A DNA stretch of 64,000 nucleotides from Bernardetia sp. OM2101 (GCF_042180575.1 NZ_CP170094.1:1912604-1976603); one strand, 5' to 3'; positions 22,692 through 61,658 are shown, numbered from the stretch's first letter. Translations and numbers: made by a program. The notes: generated by a model not told the origin, from the sequence alone.

Positions 22692-22778
22692 GTGTATTTT
22701 TAGTCTATTAAAAAAACATTCTAGTTATCTTTCAACCGTTGCTTGTGTTCCACGAGCGACAGTTTAATAAAAAATACT

Positions 22779-24434
22779 ATGCTCAAACATTTGCTTATCG
22801 ATAATTATGCGCTCATAGAGCATTTAGAAATCCAGCCAGATTCTCATCTCAACGTCATTACAGGCGAAACAGGTGCAGGAAAATCTATCTTGCGTGGTGC
22901 ATTAGGACTTTTGGCAGGAAACCGAGCAGACACAAAAGTGCTTCTCAATCCTGATGGCAAATGTGTCATTGAAGGTACTTTTGATATTGCAAATTATAAC
23001 CTTAAAAAAGTTTTTGAGAAAGAAGATGTAGAATACGACACAACATGTATTATCAGAAGGCAAATTTCGCCAAATGGTCGTTCAAGAGCTTTCATTAATG
23101 ATACACCTGTTCCTTTAGATTCACTCAAAAAAATTGCTGTTCGTTTGATGGATATTCACGCCCAACACGATACTATGCAGCTTTTTTCGAATGATTATCA
23201 GAGAGATGTTTTGGATTTGTATGCCAATACAAAAACACTTTTGGAGATGTATGGACATGAGTTTAAGCAATACAGAAAAATCATAAAGAAATATGAAGAG
23301 CTAAAAAATGAAGAGATACGACTTCGAAAAGAGTACGATTATAACATGCATCTTTTGGAAGAACTAGAAAAAGCAGATTTAGAAAAAATAAATAAAGAAG
23401 AACTAGAACAAGAGTTAGAACGCCTTGAAAATGTAGATTTTATCCGAACTCAAATGTCGATTGCCTTTAATTCTTTGTCTGATGAAGAATATTCGGCTGA
23501 AAATATTTTGAGAGAAGCTGTTCATGCGCTTTCAAAAACGAGTTCTTTTTCACCTTCTTTCAATGCACTTTATGAGCGTTTGAATAGTGCTATGATAGAA
23601 ATTCAAGATATTTCGAAAGAAATTGAAATCGAATCTGGTGAGTTAGTAACAGACGAAGAAACGGCAGGAATTGTAAAACAAATTTTGAGTGCTTTGTATC
23701 ATTTGGAAAACAAACACAATGTTCAGAGCAGTGAAGAATTAATACAAATTCGTGATGAAATTGCTGATAAAGTAAGAAAAGTAGAAAATTTTGATGATGA
23801 TTTGAAAGACTTAAAAGAAGAGATTTTAAGAAGTAAATCCTATTTGACAGATTTAGCAAATCAACTTACCGAACAAAGAAAGTCAGTTGTAGAAGATACA
23901 CAAAATGAAATAAATTACCTTTTGGGAGACTTAGGAATGCCAAATGCTCGTTTTCAAATCGAAATTACGCCTATTTCTCTTAGCCCATCTGGTGCTGATT
24001 TGGTAGAATTTTGGTTTTCAGCAAATAAAGGAATTTCTCCACAGCCATTGAAAGATGTCGCTTCTGGTGGAGAATTTTCTCGTTTGATGTTGTGTATAAA
24101 ATACCGTTTGGCAAAACACATTTCACTTCCTACACTCGTTTTTGATGAAATTGATACAGGTATTTCGGGAGAAATTGCCCTCAAAATGGGTAAAATCATT
24201 CAAGATATGTCCAAAACACACCAAGTTTTGATTATTAGTCATTTACCACAAGTTGCCTCACAGGGAAGTACACATTATTTTATTTACAAAGACAACTCAT
24301 CTGACCGTACTGTTTCAAGAATCAAAAAACTCTCAAACGATGAGCGAGTAAAAGAAATTGCTCAAATGATTGGAGGTTCTACGCCAAGTACGAGTACGTA
24401 TAATAGCGCAAAGGAACTTTTGCAAGTGAAATAA
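22779..24434 (+). CDS. recN: DNA repair protein RecN; start placed at MLKHLLIDNYALIEHLEI
   Basis: Walker A GETGAGKS, long coiled-coil middle region, C-terminal SGGE signature and Walker B. Confidence 0.9.
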   Translation: MLKHLLIDNYALIEHLEIQPDSHLNVITGETGAGKSILRGALGLLAGNRADTKVLLNPDGKCVIEGTFDIANYNLKKVFEKEDVEYDTTCIIRRQISPNGRSRAFINDTPVPLDSLKKIAVRLMDIHAQHDTMQLFSNDYQRDVLDLYANTKTLLEMYGHEFKQYRKIIKKYEELKNEEIRLRKEYDYNMHLLEELEKADLEKINKEELEQELERLENVDFIRTQMSIAFNSLSDEEYSAENILREAVHALSKTSSFSPSFNALYERLNSAMIEIQDISKEIEIESGELVTDEETAGIVKQILSALYHLENKHNVQSSEELIQIRDEIADKVRKVENFDDDLKDLKEEILRSKSYLTDLANQLTEQRKSVVEDTQNEINYLLGDLGMPNARFQIEITPISLSPSGADLVEFWFSANKGISPQPLKDVASGGEFSRLMLCIKYRLAKHISLPTLVFDEIDTGISGEIALKMGKIIQDMSKTHQVLIISHLPQVASQGSTHYFIYKDNSSDRTVSRIKKLSNDERVKEIAQMIGGSTPSTSTYNSAKELLQVK

Positions 24435-24464
24435 AAAGAATCATTTATTTTTACAAAAAAAATC

Positions 24465-25313
24465 ATGAAAATACCTAAGTACGATAAATTTATAATTCCA
24501 ACTTTGAAAGCATTAAAAAAACTTGGTGGTTCAGGTTCTATTGATGAAATTAATGAAACTGTGTATTTACTTGCAGAATTATCAGAAGAAATTTTGGAAG
24601 TTCAACACGATGAAAATGGCGTGCAAAGTGAGGTTGATTATCGTTTAGCTTGGGCAAGAACATACTTAAAGAAATATGGAGTTATAGAAAATTCTTCTCG
24701 TGGTGTTTGGTCATTAATAGATAATGAACTAGCCCCAGAAACTTTCAATTCTGATGAAATTGTAAAAAAAGTAAGAGAACTGACTTATCAAAGTAGAAAA
24801 GAGAAAAATACAAACATAAAAAACGAAGCAAAAGAAGAGGTAGAAGAAAATATAGACTGGAAAGAAAATTTAATATCAACTATCCTACAAATCGAACCCT
24901 CAGCTTTTGAAAGGCTTTGTCAAAGGATTCTTAGAGAAAGTGGTTTTGTGCAAGTGGAAGTAACTGGAAAAAGTGGAGATGGAGGAATTGATGGTAAAGG
25001 TATTGTTAGAATGAATGGTTTCTTGAGTTTTCACGTATTCTTTCAATCTAAGAGATATAAAGGCTCTGTTGGTTCGGGTGATGTGAGAGATTTCAGAGGT
25101 GCAATGCAAGGAAGAGCAGACAAAGGTCTTTTTATAACAACAGGAAATTTCACAAGAGAAGCTGTAAAAGAAGCCACTAGAGATGGTGCGCCTCCTATTG
25201 ATTTAATTGATGGAGATTTATTATGTGATAAATTGAAGGAGCTTTCATTAGGGGTTAAAACAGAACTTATAGAGGAGGTTTCAATTAATACAGAGTGGTT
25301 TAAGAGAATATGA
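24465..25313 (+). CDS. Mrr-like type IV restriction endonuclease (N-terminal winged helix plus Mrr_cat domain)
   Basis: MKIPKYDKFIIPTLKALKKLGGSGSIDEI N-terminus and C-terminal catalytic region FERLCQRILRESGF..GKSGDGGIDG. Confidence 0.75.
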   Translation: MKIPKYDKFIIPTLKALKKLGGSGSIDEINETVYLLAELSEEILEVQHDENGVQSEVDYRLAWARTYLKKYGVIENSSRGVWSLIDNELAPETFNSDEIVKKVRELTYQSRKEKNTNIKNEAKEEVEENIDWKENLISTILQIEPSAFERLCQRILRESGFVQVEVTGKSGDGGIDGKGIVRMNGFLSFHVFFQSKRYKGSVGSGDVRDFRGAMQGRADKGLFITTGNFTREAVKEATRDGAPPIDLIDGDLLCDKLKELSLGVKTELIEEVSINTEWFKRI

Positions 25314-25485: not shown

Positions 25486-26655
25486 ATGATAGATATTTCA
25501 AAAATTCCTTCGCCTTGTTTTGTTTTGGAAGAAAAACTCCTTCGCCGAAATTTAGAAATTTTGGATAGTGTACAAAAGCAAACAGGAGCGCATATTATTT
25601 GTGCTTTAAAAGGCTTTTCGATGTTTAGTACATTTCCTTTGGTGCGCCAGTATTTACATGGTTGTACATCTAGTTCGCTTTATGAAGCTCGTTTGGCTTT
25701 TGAGGAATTTGGACAAGAAGTTCACGCCTACGCACCTGCTTATACAGATAAAGAATTTGACGAAATAATGACGTATGTAAATCATATTAGTTTCAATTCT
25801 CTTTCTCAATATGAACGTTTCAAAGATAAATTAGCCAAAAACGAAGCAAAAACAAGCAAAAAAATATCAGCAGGTTTGCGTATCAATCCCGAATATTCAG
25901 AAGTAGAAACCGATTTATACAATCCTTGTGTGCCAGGTTCCAGGTTCGGACTCACTTTTGATAAAATAGGCGAAAACCTTCCAGAAGGAATTGAAGGATT
26001 ACATTTTCATACACTTTGTGAGCAAGGTTCGGATACATTAGAGCGCACACTTATTCATGTAGAAGAAAAATTTGGACATCTTTTGCATCAAGCAAAATGG
26101 CTTAATATGGGTGGTGGGCATCATATCACTAGAAAAGATTATGATGTAGAGCTTTTAGTAAAACTACTCAATAGAATAAAAGAAAAATATAATGTTCAAA
26201 TTATCCTAGAACCAGGGGAAGCTATCGGTTGGCAAACAGGTTATTTGGTGGCTTCTGTTCAAGATGTGATGGATAGTAGAGGGATTGAGGTCGCTATTTT
26301 AGATGTTTCTTTCACGGCTCACATGCCAGACTGTTTGGAAATGCCCTATAAACCTAAAATTTGGAATGCAGAAGATGCTACTACAAGTTCGAAGAGTGAA
26401 GGAAAATACGTTTATCGTTTTGGTGGCTCTACGTGTTTGGCAGGAGATTTTATCGGAATGGGAGATTATGCCTTTGAAAATGAATTGAAAATTAATGATA
26501 AAATAGTTTTTGATGATATGATTCATTACACAATGGTCAAAACTTCTACTTTTAATGGCGTTCCACATCCAAGTATTGGCATTTGGAAAGAAAGCAATGA
26601 ATTTCAATTAGTTAGAGAAATTGGTTATGAAATGTTTAAGAATAAATTGTCTTAG
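25486..26655 (+). CDS. nspC: Carboxynorspermidine/carboxyspermidine decarboxylase
   Basis: 389-aa PLP-fold decarboxylase with an NspC-type N-terminus (..PSPCFVLEEKLLRRNLEIL..). Confidence 0.7.
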   Translation: MIDISKIPSPCFVLEEKLLRRNLEILDSVQKQTGAHIICALKGFSMFSTFPLVRQYLHGCTSSSLYEARLAFEEFGQEVHAYAPAYTDKEFDEIMTYVNHISFNSLSQYERFKDKLAKNEAKTSKKISAGLRINPEYSEVETDLYNPCVPGSRFGLTFDKIGENLPEGIEGLHFHTLCEQGSDTLERTLIHVEEKFGHLLHQAKWLNMGGGHHITRKDYDVELLVKLLNRIKEKYNVQIILEPGEAIGWQTGYLVASVQDVMDSRGIEVAILDVSFTAHMPDCLEMPYKPKIWNAEDATTSSKSEGKYVYRFGGSTCLAGDFIGMGDYAFENELKINDKIVFDDMIHYTMVKTSTFNGVPHPSIGIWKESNEFQLVREIGYEMFKNKLS

Positions 26656-26717
26656 AACAAAAATAATTAAAGGTACGTTTATTTAAAAAATAAACGTACT
26701 CACAAATCAGAAAAAAT

Positions 26718-26933
26718 ATGAAAGACCAAGAAATATACTCAAAGCTATTTTTACTTAACTCTGACAACTTAAAACAAGAGTTATTAAATTTTATGGATTA
26801 TTTACTCACAAAACAGTTTTCAGAAACTAAGACAAAGAAAACTCCTCAATTTGGTTGTGCAAAAGGAAAATTCAGAATGAGTGATGATTTTGATGAACCT
26901 TTAGACCATTTTGACGAATATATGCCCAATTAA
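26718..26933 (+). CDS. Putative antitoxin (DUF2281-like) of the PIN toxin
   Basis: 71-aa protein immediately upstream of and co-directional with the PIN gene; C-terminal ..DDFDEPLDHFDEYM.. typical of DUF2281 antitoxins. Confidence 0.55.
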   Translation: MKDQEIYSKLFLLNSDNLKQELLNFMDYLLTKQFSETKTKKTPQFGCAKGKFRMSDDFDEPLDHFDEYMPN

Positions 26934-26945
26934 TCAAAAAATTGA

Positions 26946-27341
26946 ATGAATATTTTGCTAGATACACATGCTTTAATTTGGTTTTTTGAAGGCGATAAAA
27001 AATTAAGTAATAAGGCAAGAAAAACTATACAAGAACCGAAGAATACTATATTTGTGAGTGTAGTAAGTTTTTGGGAAATTGTTATTAAAATAAGTATAGA
27101 CAAATTGGAGATGGATTTGTCAATGGAAGAACTACAAAAATTAGTTTGGGAAAATGGAATACAAATCCTTCCTATAAAAATAGAACATACATTTTTGCTG
27201 AGAAATTTACCGTATTTTCATAAAGACCCATTTGATAGATTACTTTTTGTACAAGCATCATCTGAGAACATGAATTTGGTAAGTTGTGATGTTATTTTTG
27301 ATGATTACTTAGATAGCAGTTCAATTAGTAGAATTTGGTAG
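26946..27341 (+). CDS. PIN-domain toxin (VapC-like)
   Basis: MNILLDTHALIWFFEGDKKLS N-terminus with conserved Asp; 131 aa. Confidence 0.8.
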   Translation: MNILLDTHALIWFFEGDKKLSNKARKTIQEPKNTIFVSVVSFWEIVIKISIDKLEMDLSMEELQKLVWENGIQILPIKIEHTFLLRNLPYFHKDPFDRLLFVQASSENMNLVSCDVIFDDYLDSSSISRIW

Positions 27342-27366
27342 AACAAATTAAAAATCAATGATTAAA

Positions 27367-27519
27367 ATCGTTTTTGATGATATGATTCATTATACAATGG
27401 TCAAAACTTCTACTTTTAATGGAGTTTCTCATCCAAGTATCGGAATTTGGAAAGAAAGTAATGAATTTCAATTAGTTCGAGAAATTGGTTATGAAATGTT
27501 TAAGAATAAACTTTCTTAG
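27367..27519 (+). pseudogene. Orphan duplicate of the nspC 3' end (right-hand direct repeat of the cassette)
   Basis: Translates to ..VFDDMIHYTMVKTSTFNGVSHPSIGIWKESNEFQLVREIGYEMFKNKLS*, near-identical to the true nspC C-terminus; no upstream coding context. Confidence 0.8.
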
Positions 27520-27577
27520 AAAGAATCTGAAACACACTCTTTACAAAAAAAACTTTTTTCACAGAGTGTGTTTTTCC

Positions 27578-31930: not shown

Positions 31931-32070
31931 CCAATTACGAATTGTCAATTACGAATTACGATAAACTACTATTTCTATGCTAAATTTAGTAGTCGTAATT
32001 TTTAATTCATAGTTCGTAATTCGTAATCCGTAATTCGTAATTCGTAATCCGTAATTCGTAATTCGTAATT
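31931..32070. repeat. Array of TTCGTAA/TCCGTAA heptamer repeats with internal dyad symmetry between ftsL and ftsI
   Basis: ..caattacgaattacgataaactacta..tagtagtcgtaatttttaattc..gttcgtaattcgtaatccgtaattcgtaattcgtaatccgtaattcgtaattcgtaattg. Confidence 0.85.
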
Positions 32071-34241: not shown

Positions 34242-35234
34242 ATGAAAAAATTAAAGACAATAGATTTATTTGCAGGAATTGGAGGATTACGTTTAGCTTT
34301 TAAAAAATATAATTGTCAAAATGTATTTACTTCAGAATGGGATAAAGATGCTCAAAAAATGTATGAAGCAAATTTTGATGAAAAACCCTTTGGAGATATT
34401 ACTCAAATTCTGCCACAAGAAATACCAAATCATGATATTTTATTAGCAGGGTTTCCTTGTCAGCCTTTTTCAGTAATTGGAAATAGAGAAGGTTTTTCGG
34501 ATACTAGAGGAACTCTTTTTTTTAATATTGAAGAAATTCTCAAAGAAAAAAAACCTTATTCATTTGTCTTAGAAAATGTAAAACAGTTACGTTCACATGA
34601 TAAAGGGCGAACTTTTAAAGTTATTTTACAAAAACTAGAAGAGTTAGGATATTTTGTACATCATACAGTTTTAAATGCTTTAGATTTTGGACTTCCACAA
34701 AAAAGAGAGCGTACAATTATTGTAGGTTTTAGAGAAAACATAAACTTCCAGTTTCCCAAGCCTTTAGGAGAATACCCACCACTTTCTGAATTTTTGACAC
34801 CTGAAAATGAAGTAGATAAAAAACTTTTTGCTTCTCAAAAAATTTTAGATAAAAGACAAGCAAGATTAAAAAAAGAACCCTTTTTTCCCTCTATTTGGCA
34901 CGAAAACAAAGGTGGAAATATTTCAGTTTTGCCTTATTCTTGTGCTTTACGTGCAGGAGGTTCTTACAATTATTTATTAGTAAATGGAAATAGAAGACTT
35001 TCAGAAAGAGAACTTTTACGTTTACAAGGCTTTCCAGAAGATTTTAAAGTTGTGGTTAGTTATACAGCAATGCGAAAACTGACAGGAAATAGTGTCGCCA
35101 TTCCAGTTTTTGAAGCTGTTGCAGAAAAAATGATGGAGGCAATGGAAAGCAAAAAAATTCTTCCAATTACAAGACAACTTACTATTTTAGAATCTAATTA
35201 TGAATATTCAAATAGCAATACAGGCACTAGATAA
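34242..35234 (+). CDS. DNA cytosine-5 methyltransferase
   Basis: Motif I DLFAGIGG, motif IV GFPCQPFS, motif VI ENV, motif VIII QKRER. Confidence 0.9.
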   Translation: MKKLKTIDLFAGIGGLRLAFKKYNCQNVFTSEWDKDAQKMYEANFDEKPFGDITQILPQEIPNHDILLAGFPCQPFSVIGNREGFSDTRGTLFFNIEEILKEKKPYSFVLENVKQLRSHDKGRTFKVILQKLEELGYFVHHTVLNALDFGLPQKRERTIIVGFRENINFQFPKPLGEYPPLSEFLTPENEVDKKLFASQKILDKRQARLKKEPFFPSIWHENKGGNISVLPYSCALRAGGSYNYLLVNGNRRLSERELLRLQGFPEDFKVVVSYTAMRKLTGNSVAIPVFEAVAEKMMEAMESKKILPITRQLTILESNYEYSNSNTGTR

Positions 35235-35642
35235 AGTTATCCAAAAATCAAGAGTTCATTTGTATAAACCTATACAAATTGCTGAAATTCTTTATAGGGA
35301 TAGAGTAGAAAGAGATATTGACCTTTCTAATTTAGAAACTTATCGCAATCCTTCTAAAAAATGGCGAGACATAATTTGTATGCAGTTTCTGGGTAGAGTC
35401 AGTACTTCATCAGCTCGTTATCAAGATGATATTTTCAATCAAAATGCTATTCCTCCTGCTTTATTAGAGATATTGGGAAAAGAAAACAGAGCGAAAAATG
35501 GAATTATAGAAGCACATATTTACACACAATTTTCAAAGCGTTTTACTCAAATGAATAGTGCTTTAGATTATTGCAAATTACATGATAGAAGCAATTTTCA
35601 GCTCACAGAGTTTTTAGATTTATTTTGGAAGGAAAAAGGTTT
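35200..35642 (+). pseudogene. 5' portion of a putative cognate restriction endonuclease gene, truncated by IS insertion (the last residues of the ORF are encoded by the IS inverted repeat)
   Basis: Overlaps the methyltransferase stop by 35 nt (typical R-M coupling); the ORF runs into the IS left inverted repeat at 35643. Confidence 0.4.
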
Positions 35643-36556
35643 AGAGCCTGTTCGAGTTTAGTTTAAAAAAAAAGAACATCAGATTTTTTTATTAGTTAAG
35701 TAATTGATTTTCAGTTACTAATTAAAATATCAATTTCTATGTTTACTAATGAATATTTATCTGATGCTCTTTGGCAATATATGAAAAAATTTATACCTTC
35801 TTCGTATTTGAAAAGAAAACGCAAACACAGTTTGTATAATTTATTTTCTGGTCTATTCTATCTTACTCGTTCAGGTAGCAGTTGGCGTTTGCTTCCTAGT
35901 AGTTATGGTGTTCCTTGGAGTAGCTTGTATGATTATTTCAGTAAGTGGCAGCAGACAGGTTGGTATAAAAAGCTGTTAGATAAGCTTGTTAGAAGGGAAC
36001 GTATAGCACAAGGTAGAAATCCAAGACCTTCTTTGGGTTGTATAGACTCTCAAAGTGTTCAGAGTGTTTATGGAGGAGAGGCGATAGGAGTGGACGGCTA
36101 TAAGCTCAAAAAAGGACGGAAACGGCATATTTTAGTAGATACGCAAGGAAATTTACTAGAATTAGAGATTAGTCCAGCCAATCAAGCCGATGTAAATCAA
36201 CTTGCTTATTTGTCGTATTTAGCTCAGTTTAGAGGCAGACCATTTTTCAAAATTCTTGCTGATGCAGGGTATAGAAGTGGGGCTTTGGCTACTGAAATAT
36301 TTAGTCAAACAGGAGTGCAAGTGGAAATTGTCAATAGTCCAAGAAGAGAAAAAAAAGATGATAAAGCATTTGTTCCACAACCCAAAAGATGGGTTGTAGA
36401 AAGAACATTTGCGTGGCTCAATCAGAACCGAAGACTAAAAGTAGATTATGAAAAAACAAGAAAATCTGCAAAGGCATTTGTGTATTTAGCTATGATTTTG
36501 AATCTCATAAACAAAGGAGCTAAAAGAAATAAAAAATAAAAACTCGAACAGGCTCT
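35643..36556 (+). mobile_element. IS5-family (ISL2/IS1031-like) insertion sequence, about 914 bp, with 17-bp terminal inverted repeats
   Basis: agagcctgttcgagttt (35643-35659) and aaactcgaacaggctct (36540-36556) are perfect inverted repeats flanking the transposase ORF. Confidence 0.8.
35739..36539 (+). CDS. IS5-family DDE transposase
   Basis: DDE_Tnp_1-type motifs including ..WVVERTFAWLNQNRRL.. near the C-terminus. Confidence 0.85.
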   Translation: MFTNEYLSDALWQYMKKFIPSSYLKRKRKHSLYNLFSGLFYLTRSGSSWRLLPSSYGVPWSSLYDYFSKWQQTGWYKKLLDKLVRRERIAQGRNPRPSLGCIDSQSVQSVYGGEAIGVDGYKLKKGRKRHILVDTQGNLLELEISPANQADVNQLAYLSYLAQFRGRPFFKILADAGYRSGALATEIFSQTGVQVEIVNSPRREKKDDKAFVPQPKRWVVERTFAWLNQNRRLKVDYEKTRKSAKAFVYLAMILNLINKGAKRNKK

Positions 36557-36621
36557 TAAAAAGAAGTCTCGATAAAATTTATGAAATAATCGTTTTTGCC
36601 CTTTTTTCTTCACTCGTTGAA

Positions 36622-37161
36622 GTGCTAGAAATTGATATTGAAGTTTCTTACAGCCCCTCTAAAAAGCCTATTTTAGAAGAGTTTTCTGATTTTACTTCTC
36701 GCATTTTAAATCTATCCACAGACAAAAATAACTTTAAAACTAAAGCAAAAATTCATAGAGTTGGAGTTACTAATGCAGCAGATAGAGGGTTGGATATGTG
36801 GTCTAGTTTTGGTTTAGCAATTCAAATAAAACATCTTTCATTAAATGAAGAAATGGCTGAAAATATTGTCAATTCTATTACAGCAGATAGAATAGTAATT
36901 GTATGTAAAAAAGCTGAACAAAAAATAATTCTTTCTCTTCTTAATCAAATTGGTTGGAAGTCAAAAATTCAGACTATTGTAACAGAAGTAGATTTAATAA
37001 ATTGGTATGAAAAGGCTTTAAGAGGAGAAAACAACAATTTGATAGGACATAAAGTAATAGAAATTTTGAATAGCGAAATTGAAACAGAATTTCCTGCAAC
37101 GAAAAATACAGAGTTTGAAGACTTTGTTAAATCAAGAAATTATCAACTGCTTTATACATAA
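36622..37161 (+). CDS. Hypothetical protein; possibly the 3' portion of the IS-disrupted restriction endonuclease
   Basis: ORF begins just downstream of the IS right end, co-directional with the methyltransferase and the upstream fragment; no family recognised. Confidence 0.35.
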   Translation: MLEIDIEVSYSPSKKPILEEFSDFTSRILNLSTDKNNFKTKAKIHRVGVTNAADRGLDMWSSFGLAIQIKHLSLNEEMAENIVNSITADRIVIVCKKAEQKIILSLLNQIGWKSKIQTIVTEVDLINWYEKALRGENNNLIGHKVIEILNSEIETEFPATKNTEFEDFVKSRNYQLLYT

Positions 37162-39172: not shown

Positions 39173-40093
39173 TTATGCCTTGAAATTCAATTTTAATTGC
39201 TCGCAATATTCCATAAAATCACATTTATAAGGAGAAAGACAATACTCTCCCATTTCTATTTTTGGCTCTTCGCTCGCAAGTACAGTTTTGAATTTTTGTA
39301 TTAATGAATCTATATCTTTTATTCTTTCCTCTAATTCATTTTTTACATCAATTATATTTCCTTCGTTATTTTCATCTCTCAAAACGACATTGAATGTATT
39401 GATGGCTGTTTCTCCAAACTTTTGTTTACAGATGAAATATTGAATTGCCAAATCATTCCAAATTACGTCCTGCATATAAATATGAGATTTGATTTCATAA
39501 AAATCATACAAGTTTTCACTTATTTTATCCACCACATCACACATGACCAAAATATCACTTTCTATAAAAGTAGCTTCAAAAAGAGTGATTTTTTCGTTTT
39601 TTTTCAATAAAAAGTCTGTATAAGAAGGAAAATAACCAAAATTGAAACCTAGGTTTTCTTTTACATTGATTCCATTTTCAAAATTTTGTTCTCTAAAAAG
39701 GTCTTCAAATTGATGTCCTTTTTTGAAAAGTGCTAGTGTTTTTGCGCTTGGTGGAGTGCGTTCTTTTTTCTTGTGTTTGTCCAAATACAGATATTTTACA
39801 CATTGTTTTCCCTTGACAAATGAAGATTTAGAGAGATTCCAGTTTTGAAACTCTAAGGCAGACTGAGATTTATTTTCGTTTTTTTCTTGCTTTTCTTCTT
39901 CTTTAACTTCATTGATTTTCTCTTCCAAAAGACTAATCAAATGCAATGGATATTTTTCATTTCCTTTATATTGCTTGAGTTTTTTTATTGCTTTTTTATA
40001 ATTCGTAAAGCTAAGGTTGTAGTCTTTCATTTCGAAAGCTATTTTGCCTAGTTTTATCGAATTGCTGTCTATGAATTTTATGTAGTCATTCAT
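39173..40093 (-). CDS. Cas4-like PD-(D/E)XK nuclease-fold protein with four-Cys (Fe-S) signature
   Basis: One N-terminal Cys (..KGKQCVKYLYL..), core D..D...EIK (CDVVDK...DFYEIKS) and C-terminal C-x5-C-x5-C (CLSPYKCDFMEYC), the RecB/Cas4 arrangement. Confidence 0.45.
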   Translation of the reverse strand: MNDYIKFIDSNSIKLGKIAFEMKDYNLSFTNYKKAIKKLKQYKGNEKYPLHLISLLEEKINEVKEEEKQEKNENKSQSALEFQNWNLSKSSFVKGKQCVKYLYLDKHKKKERTPPSAKTLALFKKGHQFEDLFREQNFENGINVKENLGFNFGYFPSYTDFLLKKNEKITLFEATFIESDILVMCDVVDKISENLYDFYEIKSHIYMQDVIWNDLAIQYFICKQKFGETAINTFNVVLRDENNEGNIIDVKNELEERIKDIDSLIQKFKTVLASEEPKIEMGEYCLSPYKCDFMEYCEQLKLNFKA

Positions 40094-40108: not shown

Positions 40109-40576
40109 TTAAAATTTAGGTGTTGGCATAACAGAATTCCACATAAAAATCATTGCTATTACTCCTCCCAAAAGCATAAAAGGAATCGTTATTTTGATAT
40201 ACTTTGCACTAGGATTATTTCTTAAAAGTCCTGGATGATTTGCCATAAACTCTGCTCCACCTTTGAAATAAACCCACCAAGCCATTAGGATATATAATCC
40301 TATAAGTGAAAAATGAAAAAATAATACTATCGGATTCATCATTCTAGGAGCAAAAAACTCAAAAATATTATTTGTCATTCCTGTCAAATCTCCTATTCCC
40401 ATTATAACCCAAGGAATATTTCCAAAGAAAACCCAGCCTTTGAAGTAGTTATCATACCCTTCTTTTAGTTCAGGATTCTGTTCTATGTACTTATTAGCTC
40501 TAAATTTTAGGATAACACCGTTGAGCAGTGTTACTAAAATGAATAGTATCCAGCCATGTTTGAATATAAGTTCCAT
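40109..40576 (-). CDS. Hypothetical integral membrane protein (four predicted TM helices)
   Basis: Hydrophobic 155-aa ORF. Confidence 0.45.
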   Translation of the reverse strand: MELIFKHGWILFILVTLLNGVILKFRANKYIEQNPELKEGYDNYFKGWVFFGNIPWVIMGIGDLTGMTNNIFEFFAPRMMNPIVLFFHFSLIGLYILMAWWVYFKGGAEFMANHPGLLRNNPSAKYIKITIPFMLLGGVIAMIFMWNSVMPTPKF

Positions 40577-40599: not shown

Positions 40600-41607
40600 G
40601 ATAATAGACTTTATTACGATAATTTTTGATAGGTTATTCTTGTCTTTACCCTTAAATTATGAATACCACACGCAATTTCCATGACTTGGTCTCTTACCTC
40701 TTCTCCCCACAATCGGATTTCATCTAAGACAATTCTAAGTCTTTTTACTCCTGCTATGCTGTGTTCTGCACGTACTCTACGACTAGACTTTTTACTATTT
40801 TCAGCCTTGTCCTGCTCCGATAATTCTTTTCCTCTAGGCTTTTTTTTGGGTTGCTCAATAAGGACACCTTTAGGTCTATGACCTTGATAACCAGTATCTT
40901 GATGAAGAATAGTTCCCTCAGGAAAGGTAATATCATCTTCTTCTAATAAACGTTTATCGTGTACTTTTCCTGTTTCTGTATCTCCTAAAAAAACTACCTC
41001 TTGATGTTTATCTGTAACTAAAGTATTTTTTATAGTGTGCTTTTTTTTTTCCACTATATACTTCTTTTTGAGCTTTGTAATCGGAGGGACGAGGAATTTC
41101 ACGTTCGCTTCCATCTACCCATAACTCTAAGGCTTTACCTGCTTCTTCAACACGATCTGCAAGTTTTATTGTCCATTCCGATTCATTTCTTGCAGGCAAT
41201 ACATTAATTTTTCTTAAACTTTCTTTTAAAATGGGAAGAAGGCTGTTAATCCATTGATTAACTTTTCCTTGAGAAACATCAAAAGTAAGAGCTAAAGATT
41301 CCTGTAAAGGGTTGTTTTTCAAGTAGTAAAGGATAAAAAAAAGTTTCATTTCACTACCTTTTAGTTGTATTTTTGCGTGTTCTCGGAAGGTGGGCTTATT
41401 TCTAGCCTTTCCTTTGAGGTCATAATACATATAATGTTTTTCCCAAAGTGGAGAAAAAGTAGCTAATAACTCATCAAACTCTTTGATAGTCAAGCTAGTA
41501 AGAGCCATAAAAGGCTTTTCTTTTTTACGTAAGTTAGGTAAATCAATCATAAAGTAAGGATAAAATGACCGCTAATATAATAAAATTTACGTTTTAAAGT
41601 CTAATAA
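40600..41607 (-). mobile_element. IS element of about 1 kb encoding an HTH_Tnp_4 plus DDE_Tnp_4 (IS5-family/Harbinger-type) transposase with imperfect terminal inverted repeats
   Basis: Ends ATAGACTTTATTACGATAATTTT (40602-40625) and, in reverse complement, ATTAGACTTTAAAACGTAAATTTT (41582-41605). Confidence 0.65.
40614..41550 (-). pseudogene. DDE_Tnp_4 transposase split into two overlapping frames at an A10 run (frameshifted, or expressed by programmed frameshift)
   Basis: N-terminal part (41008-41550) and C-terminal part (40614-41114) overlap around the homopolymer at 41040-41052; together about 310 aa with GKKKAHY.. and C-terminal DDE motifs. Confidence 0.6.
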
Positions 41608-42103: not shown

Positions 42104-44152
42104 TTAATAACTCAAAATCTTAAATTCCACTCTACGATTAAGTTTTTTACTTTCCTCATCTCTTTGTCGTGTAATGGGTTGTGTACTTCCATACGGACGA
42201 GTTTCGATTCTTAATTTATCAATTTTTTTCTTGACTAAATAATCTTGAATTGCTTTTACACGCAGTGCAGAAAGTTTCATATTCATAGTAGGTATTCCTT
42301 CAAGGTCGGTGTGTCCTTCTACTTCTATTTTTATGGTCGGATTCTCTAGCATAAAAATAACTAAACGGTCAAGCTCTGGATAAGATTCTACTAAAAGTTC
42401 ATTTGTTCCTCGTTTGAAAAAGACATTATTCAGCCTTATTTTTTGTCCAACTTCTATTGGAGTAAGGTATAAATCTCGTTTTATTTCTTTATAGACTTCA
42501 TTTCCTCTAGCATCAATATTTTCACTTACCGACACAAAACCTCTTGACTTTGCCAAGAAACCATAATTTGAATTTGGTGGTAAAGCTATTTTATAACTCC
42601 CTGTTTGTGGGTCGGCTTGAGCTGTTCCTGCATTGTCTCCTGATGGCAACATTTCATAAAAAATTTCTGCACCGATTGGTTCTTTTGTTTTGGAATTATA
42701 GACTGTTCCTGAAATAAGTAAAATTGGGTCTGGACGAACTTCTACGTGGAGTTTTGCACGATAAATATCTAGCTCAGAAACTGTCGTTTTGTTTGAATGT
42801 TTGGAAGAAGAAAAATAAGCATATTCTCCACTAGCATCAATAGAATAACCTGCATCCCAACCTGCTGAATTCAGAACATTTCCCAAATTCAACGGCTCAC
42901 TCCAATTTGTCCATGTATCATCTAACCTACGACTAACATACATATCAAAACTTCCATAACCACTACGTCCATCCGAAGCAAAATAAAGCGTTTTGTTATC
43001 CGATGAAAGTGTAGGCGTAATTTCAGAAGCTGCCGAATTGAGCATATTGCCCATATTTTTTGGGGCAGACCAAGAGTTATCTTTTTGTAAAAAACTAACA
43101 TACAAATCTCGTGAACCGAACGTGTCTTCTCTACGAATAGCCATAATCAAAACTTTGCGATTGGGAGCAAGACAAATCTCTGCATATCTATCAGTATTAT
43201 AAAAATCCTTGATTTTCAAAGGTTCTGGGTACGACCAAGAACCATCAATAGTTTTGTATGAGATTGATGCACCTTGATCCATTTTTCCATTAGGTAAATA
43301 AGCATTAGCAAGCAAAATAACATTCCCATCAGGTGTTACCGAACACACATAATTGTGTTGATTATTATTTACAGGTTCACCTAATCGCTGTGCTTCACTC
43401 CAAACTGTGTCTGAAAGGTGACGAGAAAACCAAACATCATCATTTTCTTTTCCTGCTGAAATAGAAGGTGTGTTTTGTGGATGGTCTTTTCTATCAAAAA
43501 AAAGTGTTTTTCCATCAGGAGAAATAATGGGTAAAATTTCGCTATACGAAGAATTTACTGTTCTTGGAAGGCGTTCTACTTCATTGAAAGGAATAACTGG
43601 TGTGATATTTATTTCTGCCTTTATTTGTATATCGCTTTCCGAAATTCCGATGGCATCAATACTATTCCATCCTCCTACATCAATGGTATTGAGTTTTATT
43701 TTTACAGCTTTTACTCTATAAGTTGTTTTTTGTTTTAGATAAACATTGAGCATTCTACCTTGTGTAGAAATTGGTTCTGTTCGCTGATTTTTATAAATCA
43801 AATGTCCTTTATCTTCTGTATCGTAGAGAATAATCGCCGAAACTGCACCAGCACCAAAACTCTCTGCAATAGCAATTTGCTTCACAAAAATAGCTTTTTC
43901 AAAACCCACTTTTATCCATTCATCTTGACGAGCTTCTGGACGTGCTGGCGACCAAGCACACGGACTTTGCCAAATAGCAGGCAAAACATTTGGTTTTCCT
44001 AAAACTTGTGTTGCTGTATGTTGGGTAGGGTTATTTTCATCAAAATATTCAGAAGAAAAATCAATGAGTTTGCTTGCCCAAAAAACATTTGTATTTGTTT
44101 GTGCCTTTGATAGGGAGGAGAAAAAAAATATCCCAAAAAAAATGATAAACAT
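42104..44152 (-). CDS. OmpA-family protein with TolB-like beta-propeller repeats and C-terminal OmpA/MotB peptidoglycan-binding domain; start placed at the signal peptide MFIIFFGIFFFSSLSKA
   Basis: Repeated WD40-like/TolB motifs (..S.DGK.L.F..) and C-terminal OmpA-like ..NRRVEFKI... The C-terminal domain family is certain; the exact architecture is less so. Confidence 0.7.
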   Translation of the reverse strand: MFIIFFGIFFFSSLSKAQTNTNVFWASKLIDFSSEYFDENNPTQHTATQVLGKPNVLPAIWQSPCAWSPARPEARQDEWIKVGFEKAIFVKQIAIAESFGAGAVSAIILYDTEDKGHLIYKNQRTEPISTQGRMLNVYLKQKTTYRVKAVKIKLNTIDVGGWNSIDAIGISESDIQIKAEINITPVIPFNEVERLPRTVNSSYSEILPIISPDGKTLFFDRKDHPQNTPSISAGKENDDVWFSRHLSDTVWSEAQRLGEPVNNNQHNYVCSVTPDGNVILLANAYLPNGKMDQGASISYKTIDGSWSYPEPLKIKDFYNTDRYAEICLAPNRKVLIMAIRREDTFGSRDLYVSFLQKDNSWSAPKNMGNMLNSAASEITPTLSSDNKTLYFASDGRSGYGSFDMYVSRRLDDTWTNWSEPLNLGNVLNSAGWDAGYSIDASGEYAYFSSSKHSNKTTVSELDIYRAKLHVEVRPDPILLISGTVYNSKTKEPIGAEIFYEMLPSGDNAGTAQADPQTGSYKIALPPNSNYGFLAKSRGFVSVSENIDARGNEVYKEIKRDLYLTPIEVGQKIRLNNVFFKRGTNELLVESYPELDRLVIFMLENPTIKIEVEGHTDLEGIPTMNMKLSALRVKAIQDYLVKKKIDKLRIETRPYGSTQPITRQRDEESKKLNRRVEFKILSY

Positions 44153-44293
44153 AGAAAAGCTGACTTTTCTTGAATAAGAAAAAAAATCAGCTAAAGAATT
44201 GTCCAATAAGTAAAAGTTTTGTAGCATAAACACAAAGATACATAGAGAATGGAAATAAGATAGTTAAAATTTACTTCCTTTTTTTCTATTTGT

Positions 44294-52652: not shown

Positions 52653-53513
52653 GGTAGTGTTCTAAATATAAGGATGTTTTTTTTGAAAAAATGGCAATGA
52701 GTTGTGATATTTGTAAAATGCAAACTAAACAAACTCACATTTGCCCTCATTGCCAAGGCAAATATACCGTAAAAAACGGTCAAACTTATTACAATAAGCA
52801 AAATTACAAGTGTAAAACTTGTAAACGCCAATTTGTAGAACGTCCTTTACCTGAAAGTAAGGAAGCTATTATTAGTTCTTACCAAGATGAGTTAGTAGCT
52901 CAACTTCTATTAGAACGTATTGCTTTAAGAGGCATTAGTCGCCTTTTTAAAAAAAGTGTCAGTTGGGTTACTTCTCGTATGAAACTCTGCTATGAGCGAA
53001 TAAAAGAAGATTTGCCTATTGGTCGTTTAGCTTCAGCAGATATAGATTTATATCTGGTAGAAGCCGACGAGTTATGGAGTTTAGCTACGCTGAGCTCGCA
53101 AGCTCGGTTTGTAGGTGCTAAAGATTGTCCAGAATGGATCTGGTTAGCTATCGAAAGACGTACAGGATTGGTAGTTGGATTTCATAGTGGAGGTAGAGAT
53201 CAAGAGGGTGCATTAGGACTTTATTTGAGTATAGATAAGAAATTAAGAGAAAAAGCCATTGTTTATGCTGATGATTTTGCTTCTTATGGAACTGTATTTC
53301 CTAAAAAACAACTCCGACAAGAAGGTAAAAAAGAAACTACTAAAATTGAGCGTTTTAATAACACAATCAGACAGAGAAATAGCCCATTAGTTAGGCTTTC
53401 TTTATCCTTTTCTAAAAAATGGGAGAATCATTATAATTCAATCAAATATTTTATAGTAAATTACAACAATGAAATTATTGCATAGAATCCATCCTTATAA
53501 AAAGAACACCACC
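52653..53513 (+). mobile_element. IS1-family insertion sequence (about 861 bp) with 24-bp inverted repeats
   Basis: Left IR GGTAGTGTTCTAAATATAAGGATG; right end CATCCTTATAAAAAGAACACCACC (reverse complement GGTGGTGTTCTTTTTATAAGGATG); IS1-type GGT(A/G)GTG termini. Confidence 0.8.
52691..53485 (+). CDS. IS1-family transposase (single-ORF InsA zinc-finger fused to InsB-like)
   Basis: N-terminal C4 zinc finger (CDIC..CPHC, CKTC) and C-terminal ..ERFNNTIRQRNSPLVRLSLSFSKKWENH.. matching the IS1 InsB tail ([24 protein letters not shown]..). Confidence 0.8.
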   Translation: MAMSCDICKMQTKQTHICPHCQGKYTVKNGQTYYNKQNYKCKTCKRQFVERPLPESKEAIISSYQDELVAQLLLERIALRGISRLFKKSVSWVTSRMKLCYERIKEDLPIGRLASADIDLYLVEADELWSLATLSSQARFVGAKDCPEWIWLAIERRTGLVVGFHSGGRDQEGALGLYLSIDKKLREKAIVYADDFASYGTVFPKKQLRQEGKKETTKIERFNNTIRQRNSPLVRLSLSFSKKWENHYNSIKYFIVNYNNEIIA

Positions 53514-54804: not shown

Positions 54805-55047
54805 ATGAAATTACCAGTTATAAAACAATTAGTAGAAACTCATTCGTTAGAAGACCTCAAAAAAGCTGAAATGGCTATGGAAGAAGGAGAAAACCCTACT
54901 TTTGAAGTAAAAGGCGAAGACGAAGGCGAACAATTTACACACGTAATTGCAGCCGTTTGGGTAAAAGAAAAAATGGAAAAAGATGGCGTTGATGCTCGTG
55001 CTGCAATGCGTGAATATACACAGAAAGTAAGAAATTCAATAAGTTAA
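54805..55047 (+). CDS. Small hypothetical protein (80 aa, acidic)
   Basis: ORF with reasonable codon usage; no family recognised. Confidence 0.4.
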   Translation: MKLPVIKQLVETHSLEDLKKAEMAMEEGENPTFEVKGEDEGEQFTHVIAAVWVKEKMEKDGVDARAAMREYTQKVRNSIS

Positions 55048-55198
55048 ATTACGAATTTTCAATTACGACCTGCTAAAGCAGCGCAGCTAATTACGAATTG
55101 AAATACAAAAATAAACCTAGTATATTTATCATATATAAAAACAAAAGCTTATTGAGTATTCATTATTTTACTCTCGTAATTTTTAATTCGTAATTGAT
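55048..55198. repeat. TTCGTAA-family repeat region ending in the conserved motif cgtaatttttaattcgtaattga directly before the start codon
   Basis: aattacgaattttcaattacgacctgctaaagcagcgcagctaattacgaattg ... ctcgtaatttttaattcgtaattgatATG. Confidence 0.8.
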
Positions 55199-55559: not shown

Positions 55560-55640
55560 AACAGCGAAGCTAGTTAAGCTATAGAATTTCGTAATTAAAA
55601 ATTCGTAATCCGTAATTGACCAATTCGTAATTAAATTAAG
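55560..55640. repeat. TTCGTAA-family repeat region (cgtaattaaaaattcgtaatccgtaattgaccaattcgtaatt)
   Basis: Read directly; variant of the conserved roughly 30-nt motif. Confidence 0.8.
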
Positions 55641-56883: not shown

Positions 56884-56974
56884 TATATTTACCGAACGGT
56901 TCGCTTTGAGTGAACTGTTCGGTATTTTTTTGTATCTTAGATAAAGAGTTTTATAACTTAAAAGATAAAATAAA

Positions 56975-57229
56975 TTGATTATGGCAAAAATAGAACTACT
57001 ATTAAAAGACCTTGAAAACCTAAATCGTGATGAAATTTGGGTTGTCTGGGAATTTCTACAACAAAAAATAAAATCTTATACTCTAAATCCTGCTCAATCC
57101 GTAGAAAAAGAAGAAACAAAAAGACTACAATTTGATGATTTTTCGTTTGGACGTACTAGAGAAATTTTGAAAGGAAAAAATCTGAATTTGAGTGATGCTG
57201 TTATTGAAGAAAGGAGAAGTTACGAATGA
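56975..57229 (+). CDS. Putative antitoxin of the PIN toxin
   Basis: 84-aa ORF overlapping the PIN gene start by 4 nt (ATGA coupling). Confidence 0.5.
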   Translation: MIMAKIELLLKDLENLNRDEIWVVWEFLQQKIKSYTLNPAQSVEKEETKRLQFDDFSFGRTREILKGKNLNLSDAVIEERRSYE

Positions 57230-57651
57230 ATTTATTTTTAGATACTTCTGCATTATTGAAATTATACGATAATGAAATAGGCAGTGATGAAATGGAACTT
57301 TTATTCACTACCAATAAAATTGAAAAAATCTATCTCTCTTCTCTTACGATTTTAGAATTAGAATCTGCTATCAGAAAAAAACAACGTATGAAATTACTTA
57401 CAGAAAGTGAAACTGAAGAAATTTCAAGGCTTTTTACTGAAGATTCTAGCAAATTTACTTGGATAGAGATTGATGATAAAATTTTACAAAGAGCATTTCT
57501 ATTATTAAAAAAATACGGAATAGAAGGTTTGAGAACTTTAGATGCTATTCAATTATCAAGTGCCATTGAAGTAAAAAATGATGTTGCTTTGAATATTACT
57601 TATGATAAATTGCTAAAAAGTTTATTTGAAAAAGAAGATTTGAATAACTAA
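57226..57651 (+). CDS. PIN-domain toxin (VapC-like)
   Basis: MNLFLDTSALLKLYDNEIGSDEME.. N-terminal PIN motif with conserved Asp. Confidence 0.75.
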   Translation: MNLFLDTSALLKLYDNEIGSDEMELLFTTNKIEKIYLSSLTILELESAIRKKQRMKLLTESETEEISRLFTEDSSKFTWIEIDDKILQRAFLLLKKYGIEGLRTLDAIQLSSAIEVKNDVALNITYDKLLKSLFEKEDLNN

Positions 57652-57660
57652 AAAAATGAC

Positions 57661-61656: not shown

Positions 61657-61658
61657 TC

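What the first reader, a model, noticed from the sequence alone, without database searches (positions are those of the whole stretch)
39173..40093. Solitary Cas4-like PD-(D/E)XK / four-Cys nuclease-fold gene next to a transposon, with no CRISPR-Cas context
The 306-aa protein shows the Cas4/AddB nuclease-domain arrangement (one N-terminal Cys, catalytic D...EIK, C-terminal C-x5-C-x5-C). It has a K/E-rich N-terminal region, lies beside a DDE_Tnp_4 IS, and no cas genes or CRISPR array are in the window. Stand-alone Cas4-like nucleases occur in defence islands and in phage or mobile-element genomes.
Basis: partly seen in the sequence, partly recalled or inferred. Interest (0 to 1): 0.5.

Follow-up and report, generated by a model that had tools for sequence, protein, structure and literature searches.

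The report
Solo Cas4-like iron-sulfur nuclease gene
This is an intact, conserved gene for a stand-alone DNA-cutting enzyme of the Cas4 type, closest to the little-studied "DUF2779" branch, with an extra small helical domain at its front; it has nothing to do with CRISPR or with the transposon next to it, and is an unannotated but fairly ordinary member of a known enzyme class.

Summary
The 306-aa ORF at 39173-40093 (-) is real and identical to a hypothetical protein of Bernardetia sp. OM2101. It is under purifying selection (dN/dS 0.12-0.14).

This family lacks the DUF2779 DEDD exonuclease. It carries instead an N-terminal three-helix TPR/MIT-like bundle and a K/E-rich linker. It is rare and essentially confined to Bacteroidota.

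The window has no CRISPR array or cas gene. The adjacent IS is incidental: it inserted into a spacer between syntenic genes. No partner gene is conserved across 35 lineages, though neighbours are often restriction-modification or conflict systems. Four lineages have a TOTE system directly adjacent.

This is a new member of a known kind, of modest interest.

The parts
39173..40093 (-). Complete gene for the 306-aa stand-alone Cas4-like nuclease, stop codon included
   Evidence: ORF listed. Identical to the hypothetical protein ACE193_08180 of Bernardetia sp. OM2101. dN/dS is 0.12-0.14 against four orthologues.
39878..40093 (-). N-terminal three-helix TPR/MIT-like bundle, residues 1-72
39848..39910 (-). 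K/E-rich end of helix 3 plus flexible linker, residues about 62-82
   Evidence: Lowest model confidence in the protein (pLDDT 65 for residues 71-80). 39% K+E over residues 40-85. Length varies in alignment A1.
39176..39847 (-). Cas4-like PD-(D/E)XK nuclease domain of the DUF2779 N-terminal type, residues 83-306
   Evidence: Profile positions 77-294 match 3211 cluster representatives, including DUF2779 proteins. tblastn of residues 84-304 against annotated DUF2779 genes gives E down to 2e-22. Fold matches.
39800..39802 (-). Codon of C98, the predicted first Fe-S ligand, at the break between the first two helices of the nuclease domain
   Evidence: TGT read directly. 100% conserved in 202 representatives.
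39488..39538 (-). Catalytic motifs II-III: D186 on strand 2 through E200-I-K202 on strand 3
   Evidence: Invariant. Strand positions. D and E are 14 residues apart (186 to 200), the same as Asp99 and residue 113 (followed by Lys115) in Cas4 SSO0001 as quoted in PMC13621843.
39437..39454 (-). D214-x3-Q218-Y219 motif on the helix that follows strand 3 (RecB-family QxxxY-like motif IV region)
   Evidence: D214 and Q218 are 100% conserved; Y219 is conserved in most.
39203..39241 (-). C-terminal Cys cluster C285-x5-C291-x5-C297 (clade consensus HCxxPYxCxFxxYC), the predicted three further Fe-S ligands
   Evidence: All three Cys are 100% conserved. The 5/5 spacing occurs in 195 of 202 representatives.
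40109..40576 (-). Context, not part of the family: a 155-aa predicted membrane-protein ORF ending 15 bp upstream of the gene
   Evidence: No Pfam, NCBIfam, PADLOC or PHROG hit. No homologue next to any other family member.
40602..41606 (-). Context, not part of the feature: an IS with a DDE_Tnp_4 transposase split into two overlapping frames
   Evidence: Pfam hits. 25-nt inverted repeats. Absent from the same position in five related genomes.
42104..44233 (-). Context: the OmpA/PD40 gene, the conserved upstream syntenic neighbour in Bernardetia-like genomes
   Evidence: Pfam hits. 85-89% aa identity and the same order and strand in L001, L010, L011, L012 and L030.

Best explanation
**What it is.** The gene encodes a functional, stand-alone DNA nuclease of the Cas4/AddB/Dna2/Exo5 class. 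This is a PD-(D/E)XK catalytic core whose N-terminal helix and C-terminal tail are stapled together by a four-cysteine, presumably [4Fe-4S], cluster.

**Shown here.**
- The ORF is intact and under purifying selection.
- The fold is Cas4-like.
- The catalytic residues E173, D186, E200, K202, D214 and Q218, and the four Cys, are invariant across the clade.
- Its closest sequence relatives are the N-terminal nuclease halves of DUF2779 proteins, short nuclease-only proteins, and fusions to SF1 helicases (Pif1, UvrD and AAA_11/12 types).

**Inferred by homology.**
- The enzyme binds Mg2+ or Mn2+ through D186, E200 and the main chain at K202.
- It cuts DNA, most likely single-stranded 5' ends or flaps, or nicked and linear duplex DNA, as biochemically studied Cas4 and solo-Cas4 enzymes do.
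- The Fe-S cluster is structural.

**The N-terminal domain.** The family-specific three-helix TPR/MIT-like domain and K/E-rich linker are most likely a protein-protein interaction or oligomerisation module. They would tether or regulate the nuclease. This step is inference only.

**Biological role.** The most likely role (about 45%) is an accessory or defence-type DNA-degrading function against foreign or damaged DNA. The family is rare, patchily distributed in Bacteroidota, and outside Bernardetia usually lies among restriction-modification and conflict-system genes.

**In Bernardetia.** The gene is a vertically inherited chromosomal gene. It is independent of CRISPR-Cas and of the IS that happens to sit upstream.
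For: - **ORF and identity:**
- **Selection:** dN/dS 0.12-0.14.
- **Structure model:** pLDDT 92.8, pTM 0.88, canonical alpha-beta-beta-beta-alpha-beta core.
- **Clade size and architectures:** the profile search finds 3211 representatives, sorted into four architectures. The 470-500 aa members carry PF11074 DUF2779 plus RNase_H_2, and some also hit PF01930. tblastn to annotated DUF2779 genes reaches E 2e-22.
- **Residue conservation:**
- **Weak direct Cas4 signals:** PHROG 1990, a Cas4-domain exonuclease, at E 0.002. PF01930 is hit by 3 of 30 members, best E 4.6e-6.
- **Literature:** the DUF2779 N-domain is described as a Cas4-like clade (PMC13621843; PMC3985635). Solo-Cas4 is a [4Fe-4S], Mn/Mg-dependent DNase (PMC12501428).
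- **Context:** restriction-modification, TOTE, AAA_15/21 and reverse-transcriptase neighbours. A HaeII restriction-modification system lies 2 kb away in the window.
- **Synteny and IS insertion:**
Against: - No direct biochemical evidence exists for any member of this family.
- The Cys spacing (C-x5-C-x5-C) differs from characterised Fe-S nucleases. The spatial clustering of the four Cys could not be measured, because no coordinates are returned.
- The protein itself fails every curated family model.
- No partner gene is conserved across 35 lineages; the best neighbour family occurs in only 4.
- In Bernardetia the stable neighbour is an OmpA/PD40 outer-membrane gene, not a defence gene.
- Enrichment of defence neighbours was not tested against a background.
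- Vertical inheritance with ordinary purifying selection is equally compatible with a housekeeping repair role.
Confidence: 0.62

Rival explanations
1. It is an orphaned effector, or helicase-coupled nuclease, of a TOTE-type (TPR, OB, TBP, Effector) conflict system. The three-helix TPR-like N-domain would dock the nuclease onto the TPR-S1/CSD or helicase-TBP component. The nuclease would degrade nucleic acid unwound by the SF1 helicase. In Bernardetia the partner genes would lie elsewhere or have been lost.
For: - The gene lies directly next to, or inside, TOTE operons in L014/L043, L031, L036 and L026, in three different gene orders. In L014, L043 and L031 the nuclease gene sits about 100 bp upstream of the helicase-TBP gene. 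In L036 it sits between the helicase-TBP gene and the TPR-DUF7017-S1CSD gene. In L026 it lies downstream of both.
- Those nuclease proteins are only 43-47% identical to each other, and the TOTE proteins only 44-53%.
- The same nuclease domain is fused to Pif1, UvrD and SF1 helicases in other proteins.
- The definition of TOTE is taken from bioRxiv 10.1101/2025.09.15.676423.
Against: - Only about 4 of 35 or more lineages show this arrangement.
- No TOTE gene lies in the 64-kb window, nor next to the gene in five Bernardetia-like genomes.
- Co-location could simply reflect shared residence in defence islands. The L008/L026 cassette sits next to TOTE in one genome and next to an AAA_15/21 system in the other.
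- The primary TOTE paper could not be read.
Confidence: 0.17
2. It is a housekeeping DNA-repair or recombination nuclease. It would process 5' ends or flaps in the manner of Exo5, the AddB nuclease or Dna2, with no role in defence.
For: - It is vertically inherited at a fixed chromosomal position in five Bernardetia-like genomes, with nucleotide divergence similar to the neighbouring OmpA gene (84% vs 85%).
- dN/dS is about 0.13.
- The best fold matches include the repair enzymes Dna2, AdnAB, Exo5 and MGME1.
- The literature finds that solo-Cas4 genes evolve like ordinary cellular genes (PMC5704561).
Against: - The family is very rare and patchy. There were 28 full-length loci among 185,579 species genomes, nearly all Bacteroidota (a lower bound, because the scan is pattern-based).
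- Two MAGs (metagenome-assembled genomes) carry two diverged copies.
- Outside Bernardetia the flanks are variable and rich in restriction-modification and mobile-element genes.
- A 1.5-kb cassette carrying the gene is 87.5% identical between two different islands.
Confidence: 0.17
3. It is a genuine CRISPR adaptation Cas4 that works in trans with a Cas1-Cas2 module encoded elsewhere in the genome.
For: The fold is the same as CRISPR Cas4. Only 64 kb of a genome of about 5.9 Mb is visible.
Against: - No PF01930 hit.
- It is far closer to DUF2779-type proteins than to CRISPR-associated Cas4.
- None of the 66 related loci showed a cas1 or cas2 neighbour among the recurrent families.
- No CRISPR array or cas gene lies in the window.
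- The extra N-domain is absent from CRISPR-associated Cas4.
Confidence: 0.02
4. It is a passenger or accessory gene of the adjacent transposon.
For: An IS with a DDE_Tnp_4 transposase lies about 500 bp upstream.
Against: - The IS has its own inverted repeats at 40602-41606, and the gene lies outside them.
- Orthologues in five genomes sit at the same place, after the OmpA/PD40 gene, without the IS. Homology to them resumes exactly at the ATG.
- The window holds three other unrelated IS elements, so IS proximity is expected by chance.
Confidence: 0.02

Closest known systems
N-terminal Cas4-like nuclease domain of DUF2779 (PF11074) proteins, e.g. MMSYN1_0389 of JCVI-syn3.0
   Same: This is the closest sequence relative. 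The A1 profile hits DUF2779 proteins at E about 1e-33 to 1e-39. tblastn gives 28-34% identity over residues 84-304. The signature is shared: one N-terminal Cys, E...D...ExK...DxxxQ, and HCxxPYxCxFxxYC.
   Different: It lacks the C-terminal DEDD/RNase H-like exonuclease domain that defines PF11074. It has instead an N-terminal three-helix TPR/MIT-like domain. MMSYN1_0389 itself retains only two of the four Cys (PMC13621843).
Solo-Cas4 (Cas4 family, PF01930/COG1468, encoded outside CRISPR-cas loci), e.g. the M. mazei Solo-Cas4
   Same: It is a stand-alone gene with the same fold, the same catalytic D...ExK, four conserved Cys (1 + 3), vertical inheritance and moderate purifying selection (PMC5704561; PMC12501428).
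   Different: It does not reach the PF01930 model. The Cys spacing is C-x5-C-x5-C rather than C-x2-C-x5-C. It carries an extra N-terminal domain. It is restricted to Bacteroidota, whereas solo-Cas4 is mostly found in archaea, CPR bacteria and Chloroflexi.
CRISPR-associated Cas4 (type I-C Cas4, PDB 8d3l; Cas4-Cas1 fusion, PDB 7mi4; SSO0001, PDB 4ic1)
   Different: It has no Cas1/Cas2 or CRISPR context. Sequence identity is only 13-15%. It has an added N-domain.
Fe-S helicase-nuclease enzymes: Dna2, AddB/AdnAB nuclease domains, Exo5
   Different: The window protein has no helicase domain, and no helicase gene is adjacent in the window.

Membership tests
PD-(D/E)XK (restriction-endonuclease-like) nuclease superfamily | An alpha-beta-beta-beta-alpha-beta core, with the acidic residue on strand 2 and (D/E)xK on strand 3 | tested here: met
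   The model has helix 152-165, strands 169-178, 181-192 (D186) and 195-202 (E200, K202), helix 209-226 and strand 231-238. All fold hits are PD-(D/E)XK nucleases.
Cas4 family in the broad sense (Cas4/AddB/Dna2/Exo5-type Fe-S nucleases) | Four conserved Cys: one before the catalytic core and three at the C-terminus | tested here: met
   C98, C285, C291 and C297 are 100% conserved in 202 representatives. The spacing is x5/x5 rather than the canonical x2/x5.
Cas4 family in the broad sense (Cas4/AddB/Dna2/Exo5-type Fe-S nucleases) | The four Cys cluster in space and bind a [4Fe-4S] cluster | not testable with these tools
   Structure prediction returns no coordinates. Support is indirect only: the Cys are invariant, and the best fold matches are Fe-S nucleases.
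Cas4 family in the broad sense (Cas4/AddB/Dna2/Exo5-type Fe-S nucleases) | Three-dimensional similarity to solved Cas4 structures | tested here: met
Cas4 in the strict sense (Pfam PF01930 Cas_Cas4 / DUF83) | The sequence scores above the PF01930 gathering threshold | tested here: not met
   No hit even at E<=1 for the window protein. Only 3 of 30 relatives match, best E 4.6e-6. Profile searches against PDB sequences do not reach Cas4.
CRISPR-associated Cas4 (adaptation module) | Encoded next to cas1/cas2 or a CRISPR array | tested here: not met
   No array. No cas gene among 38 ORFs. No recurrent cas neighbour in 66 related loci.
DUF2779 family (PF11074) | An N-terminal Cas4-like nuclease domain with the HCxxPYxCxFxxYC signature | tested here: met
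DUF2779 family (PF11074) | A C-terminal DUF2779 / DEDD-type RNase H-like exonuclease domain | tested here: not met
   The protein ends 9 residues after the last Cys. It has no PF11074 or PF13482 hit. True DUF2779 relatives of 470-500 aa do hit both.
TOTE conflict systems (effector component) | Encoded in an operon with TBP-TOTE and TPR-S1/CSD-TOTE genes | tested here: not met
   Not met for the window gene or the Bernardetia orthologues. Met for relatives in L014/L043, L026, L031 and L036.
TPR / MIT-like helical domains (N-terminal domain) | A helical-hairpin or three-helix bundle with the TPR sequence pattern | tested here: inconclusive

The most novel reading that the evidence does not exclude
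The [three-helix TPR-like domain + DUF2779-type Cas4-like nuclease] family is a dedicated effector nuclease of TOTE-type, or other helicase-driven, conflict systems in Bacteroidota. Its N-domain would dock onto the system's TPR or helicase component. Solitary copies such as this one would act in trans with, or be relics of, such systems. If so, the whole DUF2779-type Cas4-like clade would be linked to helicase-coupled anti-invader nucleic-acid degradation.
Probability: 0.17. Interest if true: 0.55.

Novelty: new member of a known kind. Interest (0 to 1): 0.3.

Why it matters
The gene gives a name and a testable activity to a protein that every public source lists as hypothetical. It also delimits a small Bacteroidota-specific family within the barely studied DUF2779-type branch of Cas4-like nucleases.

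That branch is large (more than 3000 representatives at 50% identity). It includes a quasi-essential gene of the minimal cell JCVI-syn3.0, yet no member has been characterised biochemically. A 306-aa single-nuclease member with all four Cys would be a convenient model for three things: the clade's unusual C-x5-C-x5-C cluster site, its substrate preference, and the possible link to TOTE and helicase-based conflict systems.

For annotation of this window, the result removes any suggestion of a cryptic CRISPR-Cas or transposon-borne function.

Tried and rejected
**Searches that found nothing for the protein itself**
- Direct scans against Pfam, NCBIfam and PADLOC found nothing significant.
- phmmer and profile hmmsearch against PDB sequences found only TPR-like designed proteins, or nothing. 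They could not give a residue-level alignment to Cas4.
- Two tblastn searches of phage genomes were run, one with the full protein at E<=1e-3 and one with the nuclease domain at E<=10. They gave no usable hit, so no annotated phage Cas4 sequence could be fetched for an HH alignment.

- The afdb50 fold library was unavailable.
- The exact protein is not in the contig index.
- The primary TOTE paper (Aravind et al. 2022) is not held.
- The promoter and terminator scan around the gene gave counts at chance level.

**Hypotheses rejected**
- IS passenger gene: rejected on the IS inverted repeats and on synteny.
- CRISPR Cas4: rejected on context and sequence distance.
- Operon partnership with the upstream 155-aa membrane ORF: that ORF has no homologue near any other family member.
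- A conserved two-gene module with the 192-aa ORF of L008/L026/L070: it is confined to one lineage.

Full report
**1. Observation**

The ORF at 39173-40093 on the minus strand is real. It encodes 306 aa and starts with ATG. Its product is identical to a protein annotated only as hypothetical (ACE193_08180) in Bernardetia sp. OM2101, on a 5.9-Mb contig.

C98 is the only Cys before the core. D186 and E200-I-K202 are there, and so is C285-x5-C291-x5-C297. The K/E-rich stretch is also real: residues 40-85 are 39% K+E.

The gene is under purifying selection, with dN/dS of 0.12-0.14 against four orthologues.

The window contains no CRISPR array. None of the 38 larger ORFs scanned against Pfam is a cas gene.

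**2. What the protein is**

Curated profile libraries do not recognise it. Pfam, NCBIfam and PADLOC give nothing significant, and there is only a partial PHROG "Cas4-domain exonuclease" match at E 0.002.

It has 69 homologues in the 5.8-billion-protein set. Those from Bernardetia-like genomes are about 80% identical. Those from metagenomes are 42-51% identical. Almost all are unnamed.

An AlphaFold2 model built on a 30-sequence alignment is confident, with pLDDT 92.8 and pTM 0.88. It shows two parts:
- Residues 1-72 form a three-helix bundle. A low-confidence K/E-rich linker follows.
- Residues ~83-306 form a nuclease domain with the canonical PD-(D/E)XK alpha-beta-beta-beta-alpha-beta core. 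E173 lies on strand 1, D186 on strand 2, E200 and K202 on strand 3, and D214, Q218 and Y219 on the following helix.

C98 sits at the break between the first two helices of the nuclease domain. C285, C291 and C297 lie in the C-terminal tail.

Fold searches agree on the class:
- Foldseek against the PDB puts type I-C Cas4 first (E 1.5e-4). Next come the Cas4-Cas1 fusion, Pcal_0546 Cas4, the Argonaute-associated Cas4-family protein ACE1, AdnAB and Exo5.
- The best viral match is a phage Cas4.

**3. Family placement**

A profile of the family was searched against 1.84 billion cluster representatives. It finds 3211 proteins at E<=1e-3, almost all through the nuclease domain (profile positions ~77-294).

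- three-helix domain plus nuclease, which is this family (67 proteins);
- nuclease only, about 220-245 aa (59);
- nuclease plus a long C-terminal extension (65);
- other N-terminal extensions (4).

A further 22 hits were partial or did not fit these classes.

The members of 470-500 aa are DUF2779 proteins. They carry PF11074 plus RNase_H_2, and some also touch PF01930 Cas_Cas4. Others in the long-extension group are fusions to Pif1, UvrD-RNase T or SF1 helicases.

tblastn against plasmids independently aligns residues 84-304 to genes annotated "DUF2779 domain-containing protein". Identity is 28-34% and E reaches 2e-22.

Across 202 representatives with a full nuclease domain, the residues C98, E173, D186, E200, K202, D214, Q218, P277, C285, P288, C291 and C297 are 100% conserved. 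The C-terminal signature is HCxxPYxCxFxxYC, with x5/x5 spacing in 195 of 202.

The canonical Cas4, AddB and Dna2 spacing is C-x2-C-x5-C. That figure is from my own knowledge of SSO0001, AddB and Dna2. The x5/x5 spacing is therefore a hallmark of this clade.

The literature already links the DUF2779 N-terminal region to DUF83/Cas4 (PMC3985635). [quoted passage not shown]

The window protein is thus a DUF2779-type Cas4-like nuclease that lacks the DEDD exonuclease half and has acquired a TPR/MIT-like N-domain.

**4. Genomic context**

In Bernardetia litoralis and four related genomes or MAGs (metagenome-assembled genomes), the order META-domain gene, OmpA/PD40 gene, nuclease gene is conserved on one strand.

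DNA homology to the window stops at the end of the OmpA gene, or one small ORF later in L011. It resumes exactly at the nuclease ATG and ends at its stop codon.

The 2 kb in between is specific to this strain. It holds a 154-aa ORF, the IS (inverted repeats at 40602-40626 and 41582-41606; frameshifted DDE_Tnp_4 transposase) and a 155-aa membrane ORF. The IS association is therefore incidental. The window carries three other IS elements as well.

Across species genomes the full-length family was found in only 28 loci among 185,579 species. All are Bacteroidota except one Ignavibacteriaceae, and two MAGs hold two diverged copies. This is a lower bound because the scan is pattern-based.

There is no homologue in 50,697 phage records. 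Only one distant hit appears in IMG/VR.

**5. Neighbours**

Neighbours were clustered in two rounds: 32 loci first, then 66 loci falling into 35 lineages. No partner is conserved. The most recurrent neighbour family occurs in 4 lineages.

The neighbourhoods are nevertheless rich in conflict genes:
- MmeI-type restriction-modification genes, one of them 20 bp upstream in L007;
- Eco57I-type and C5 methylases;
- an integrase-bearing element carrying MmeI;
- an AAA_15/AAA_21/DUF3696 array;
- type I HsdM in 3 lineages;
- reverse transcriptases, a YobI ATPase and HisKin-conflict domains;
- in the window itself, a HaeII-type restriction-modification system 2 kb away.

A 1.5-kb cassette (a 192-aa ORF plus the nuclease gene) is 87.5% identical between L008 and L026. 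It is embedded in different defence surroundings in each.

The most specific association is with TOTE conflict systems, which comprise an SF1 helicase-TBP gene and a TPR-DUF7017-S1/CSD gene. The nuclease gene lies about 100 bp upstream of the helicase gene in L014, L043 and L031. It lies between the two TOTE genes in L036, and downstream of both in L026. Those nuclease proteins are only 43-47% identical to each other.

This pattern holds for about 4 of 35 lineages. It does not hold for Bernardetia.

Enrichment of defence neighbours against a genomic background was not computed.

**6. Mechanism**

*Shown:* an intact gene under selection, a Cas4-type fold, a complete catalytic constellation, and four invariant Cys.

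*Inferred from characterised relatives:* SSO0001 and M. mazei Solo-Cas4 are [4Fe-4S]-containing, Mn2+/Mg2+-dependent DNases (PMC12501428; PMC13621843). D and E are 14 residues apart here (186 to 200), matching Asp99 and residue 113 of SSO0001. I therefore infer a metal-dependent DNA nuclease whose Fe-S cluster ties the N-terminal helix to the C-terminal tail.

The same domain is repeatedly fused or juxtaposed with SF1 helicases. This suggests it prefers unwound single strands or DNA ends, as AddB and Dna2 do.

The N-domain is most plausibly a protein-interaction or oligomerisation module. This is inference only.

*My estimates:*

| Claim | Probability |
|---|---|
| Nuclease of this class | ~0.85 |
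| Fe-S cluster present | ~0.75 |
| Defence or foreign-DNA role | ~0.45 |
| Housekeeping repair role | ~0.17 |
| TOTE or helicase-system effector | ~0.17 |

**7. Novelty and verdict**

The protein is a solitary Cas4-like Fe-S nuclease. It is not a strict Cas4 (PF01930 not met) and not a DUF2779 protein (DEDD domain absent). It is an unannotated small family within the DUF2779-type Cas4-like clade.

Solo Cas4-like nucleases are a known kind, and the clade has been noted in the literature. I therefore rate it a new member of a known kind, with modest interest (0.3). The TOTE and helicase link is the one lead that could raise it.

Noticed in passing
window 34242-37161: A HaeII-type restriction-modification system whose endonuclease gene is split by an IS. 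The C5 methylase is at 34242-35234. The RE_HaeII N-half (profile 3-143) is at 35200-35661, an IS4/5 transposase at 35739-36539, and the RE_HaeII C-half (profile 166-338) at 36622-37161. This looks like an IS knockout of the endonuclease that leaves an orphan methylase.
   Followed up: partly
window 26483-27521 and 56808-57734: Two gene 3' ends are duplicated as direct repeats. One pair is 175-176 bp at 92% identity, after the gene at 25486-26655. The other is 75 bp at 96% identity, after mnmA at 55654-56883. The repeats flank inserts of about 690-780 bp, and each insert encodes a PIN/VapC-like ORF. These look like small toxin-antitoxin cassettes inserted at gene ends with duplication of the target 3' end.
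   Followed up: partly
window 40602-41606: The IS next to the finding has 25-nt imperfect inverted repeats. Its transposase is in two overlapping frames (HTH_Tnp_4 at 41008-41550; DDE_Tnp_4 at 40614-41114). This is either a programmed frameshift or a pseudogene.
   Followed up: partly
window 2846-2900, 16469-16493, 31933-32070, 55047-55194, 55582-55616, 61625-61659: Short arrays of heptamers recur in several intergenic regions: TCGTAAT / AATTACG, and ATTAGTG x8. Function unknown.
   Followed up: no
window 22743-25313, 12692-13477, 52691-53485, 57806-58993: Other conflict or mobile genes lie in the window. An Mrr-type restriction endonuclease (24465-25313) directly follows a RecN/SMC-like ATPase (22743-24434). 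There is also a HipA_2 kinase, an IS1-family transposase and an ISL3 transposase.
   Followed up: no
L008 7376-8897 and L026 7376-8903 (also L070): A 1.5-kb two-gene cassette (a 192-aa Cys-rich ORF with no family match, plus the Cas4-like gene) is 87.5% identical between two contigs. Its upstream cargo differs: an AAA_15/AAA_21/DUF3696 array in one, a TOTE system in the other.
   Followed up: partly
L036 809-1703; L014 540-2637; L031 40-942; L043 136-1451: In these loci the Cas4-like gene is embedded in, or abuts, TOTE conflict-system genes. In L036 it lies between the helicase-TBP gene and the TPR-DUF7017-S1/CSD gene, and it carries an apparent frameshift near residue 70. That frameshift could be a MAG (metagenome-assembled genome) sequencing error or a pseudogene.
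   Followed up: partly
L001 1-1343 (Bernardetia litoralis): In B. litoralis a GmrSD_N protein and a HEPN (MAE_28990/RiboL-PSP) protein lie about 7 kb upstream of the orthologous nuclease gene. The region is a variable defence-rich stretch in that genome too.
   Followed up: no
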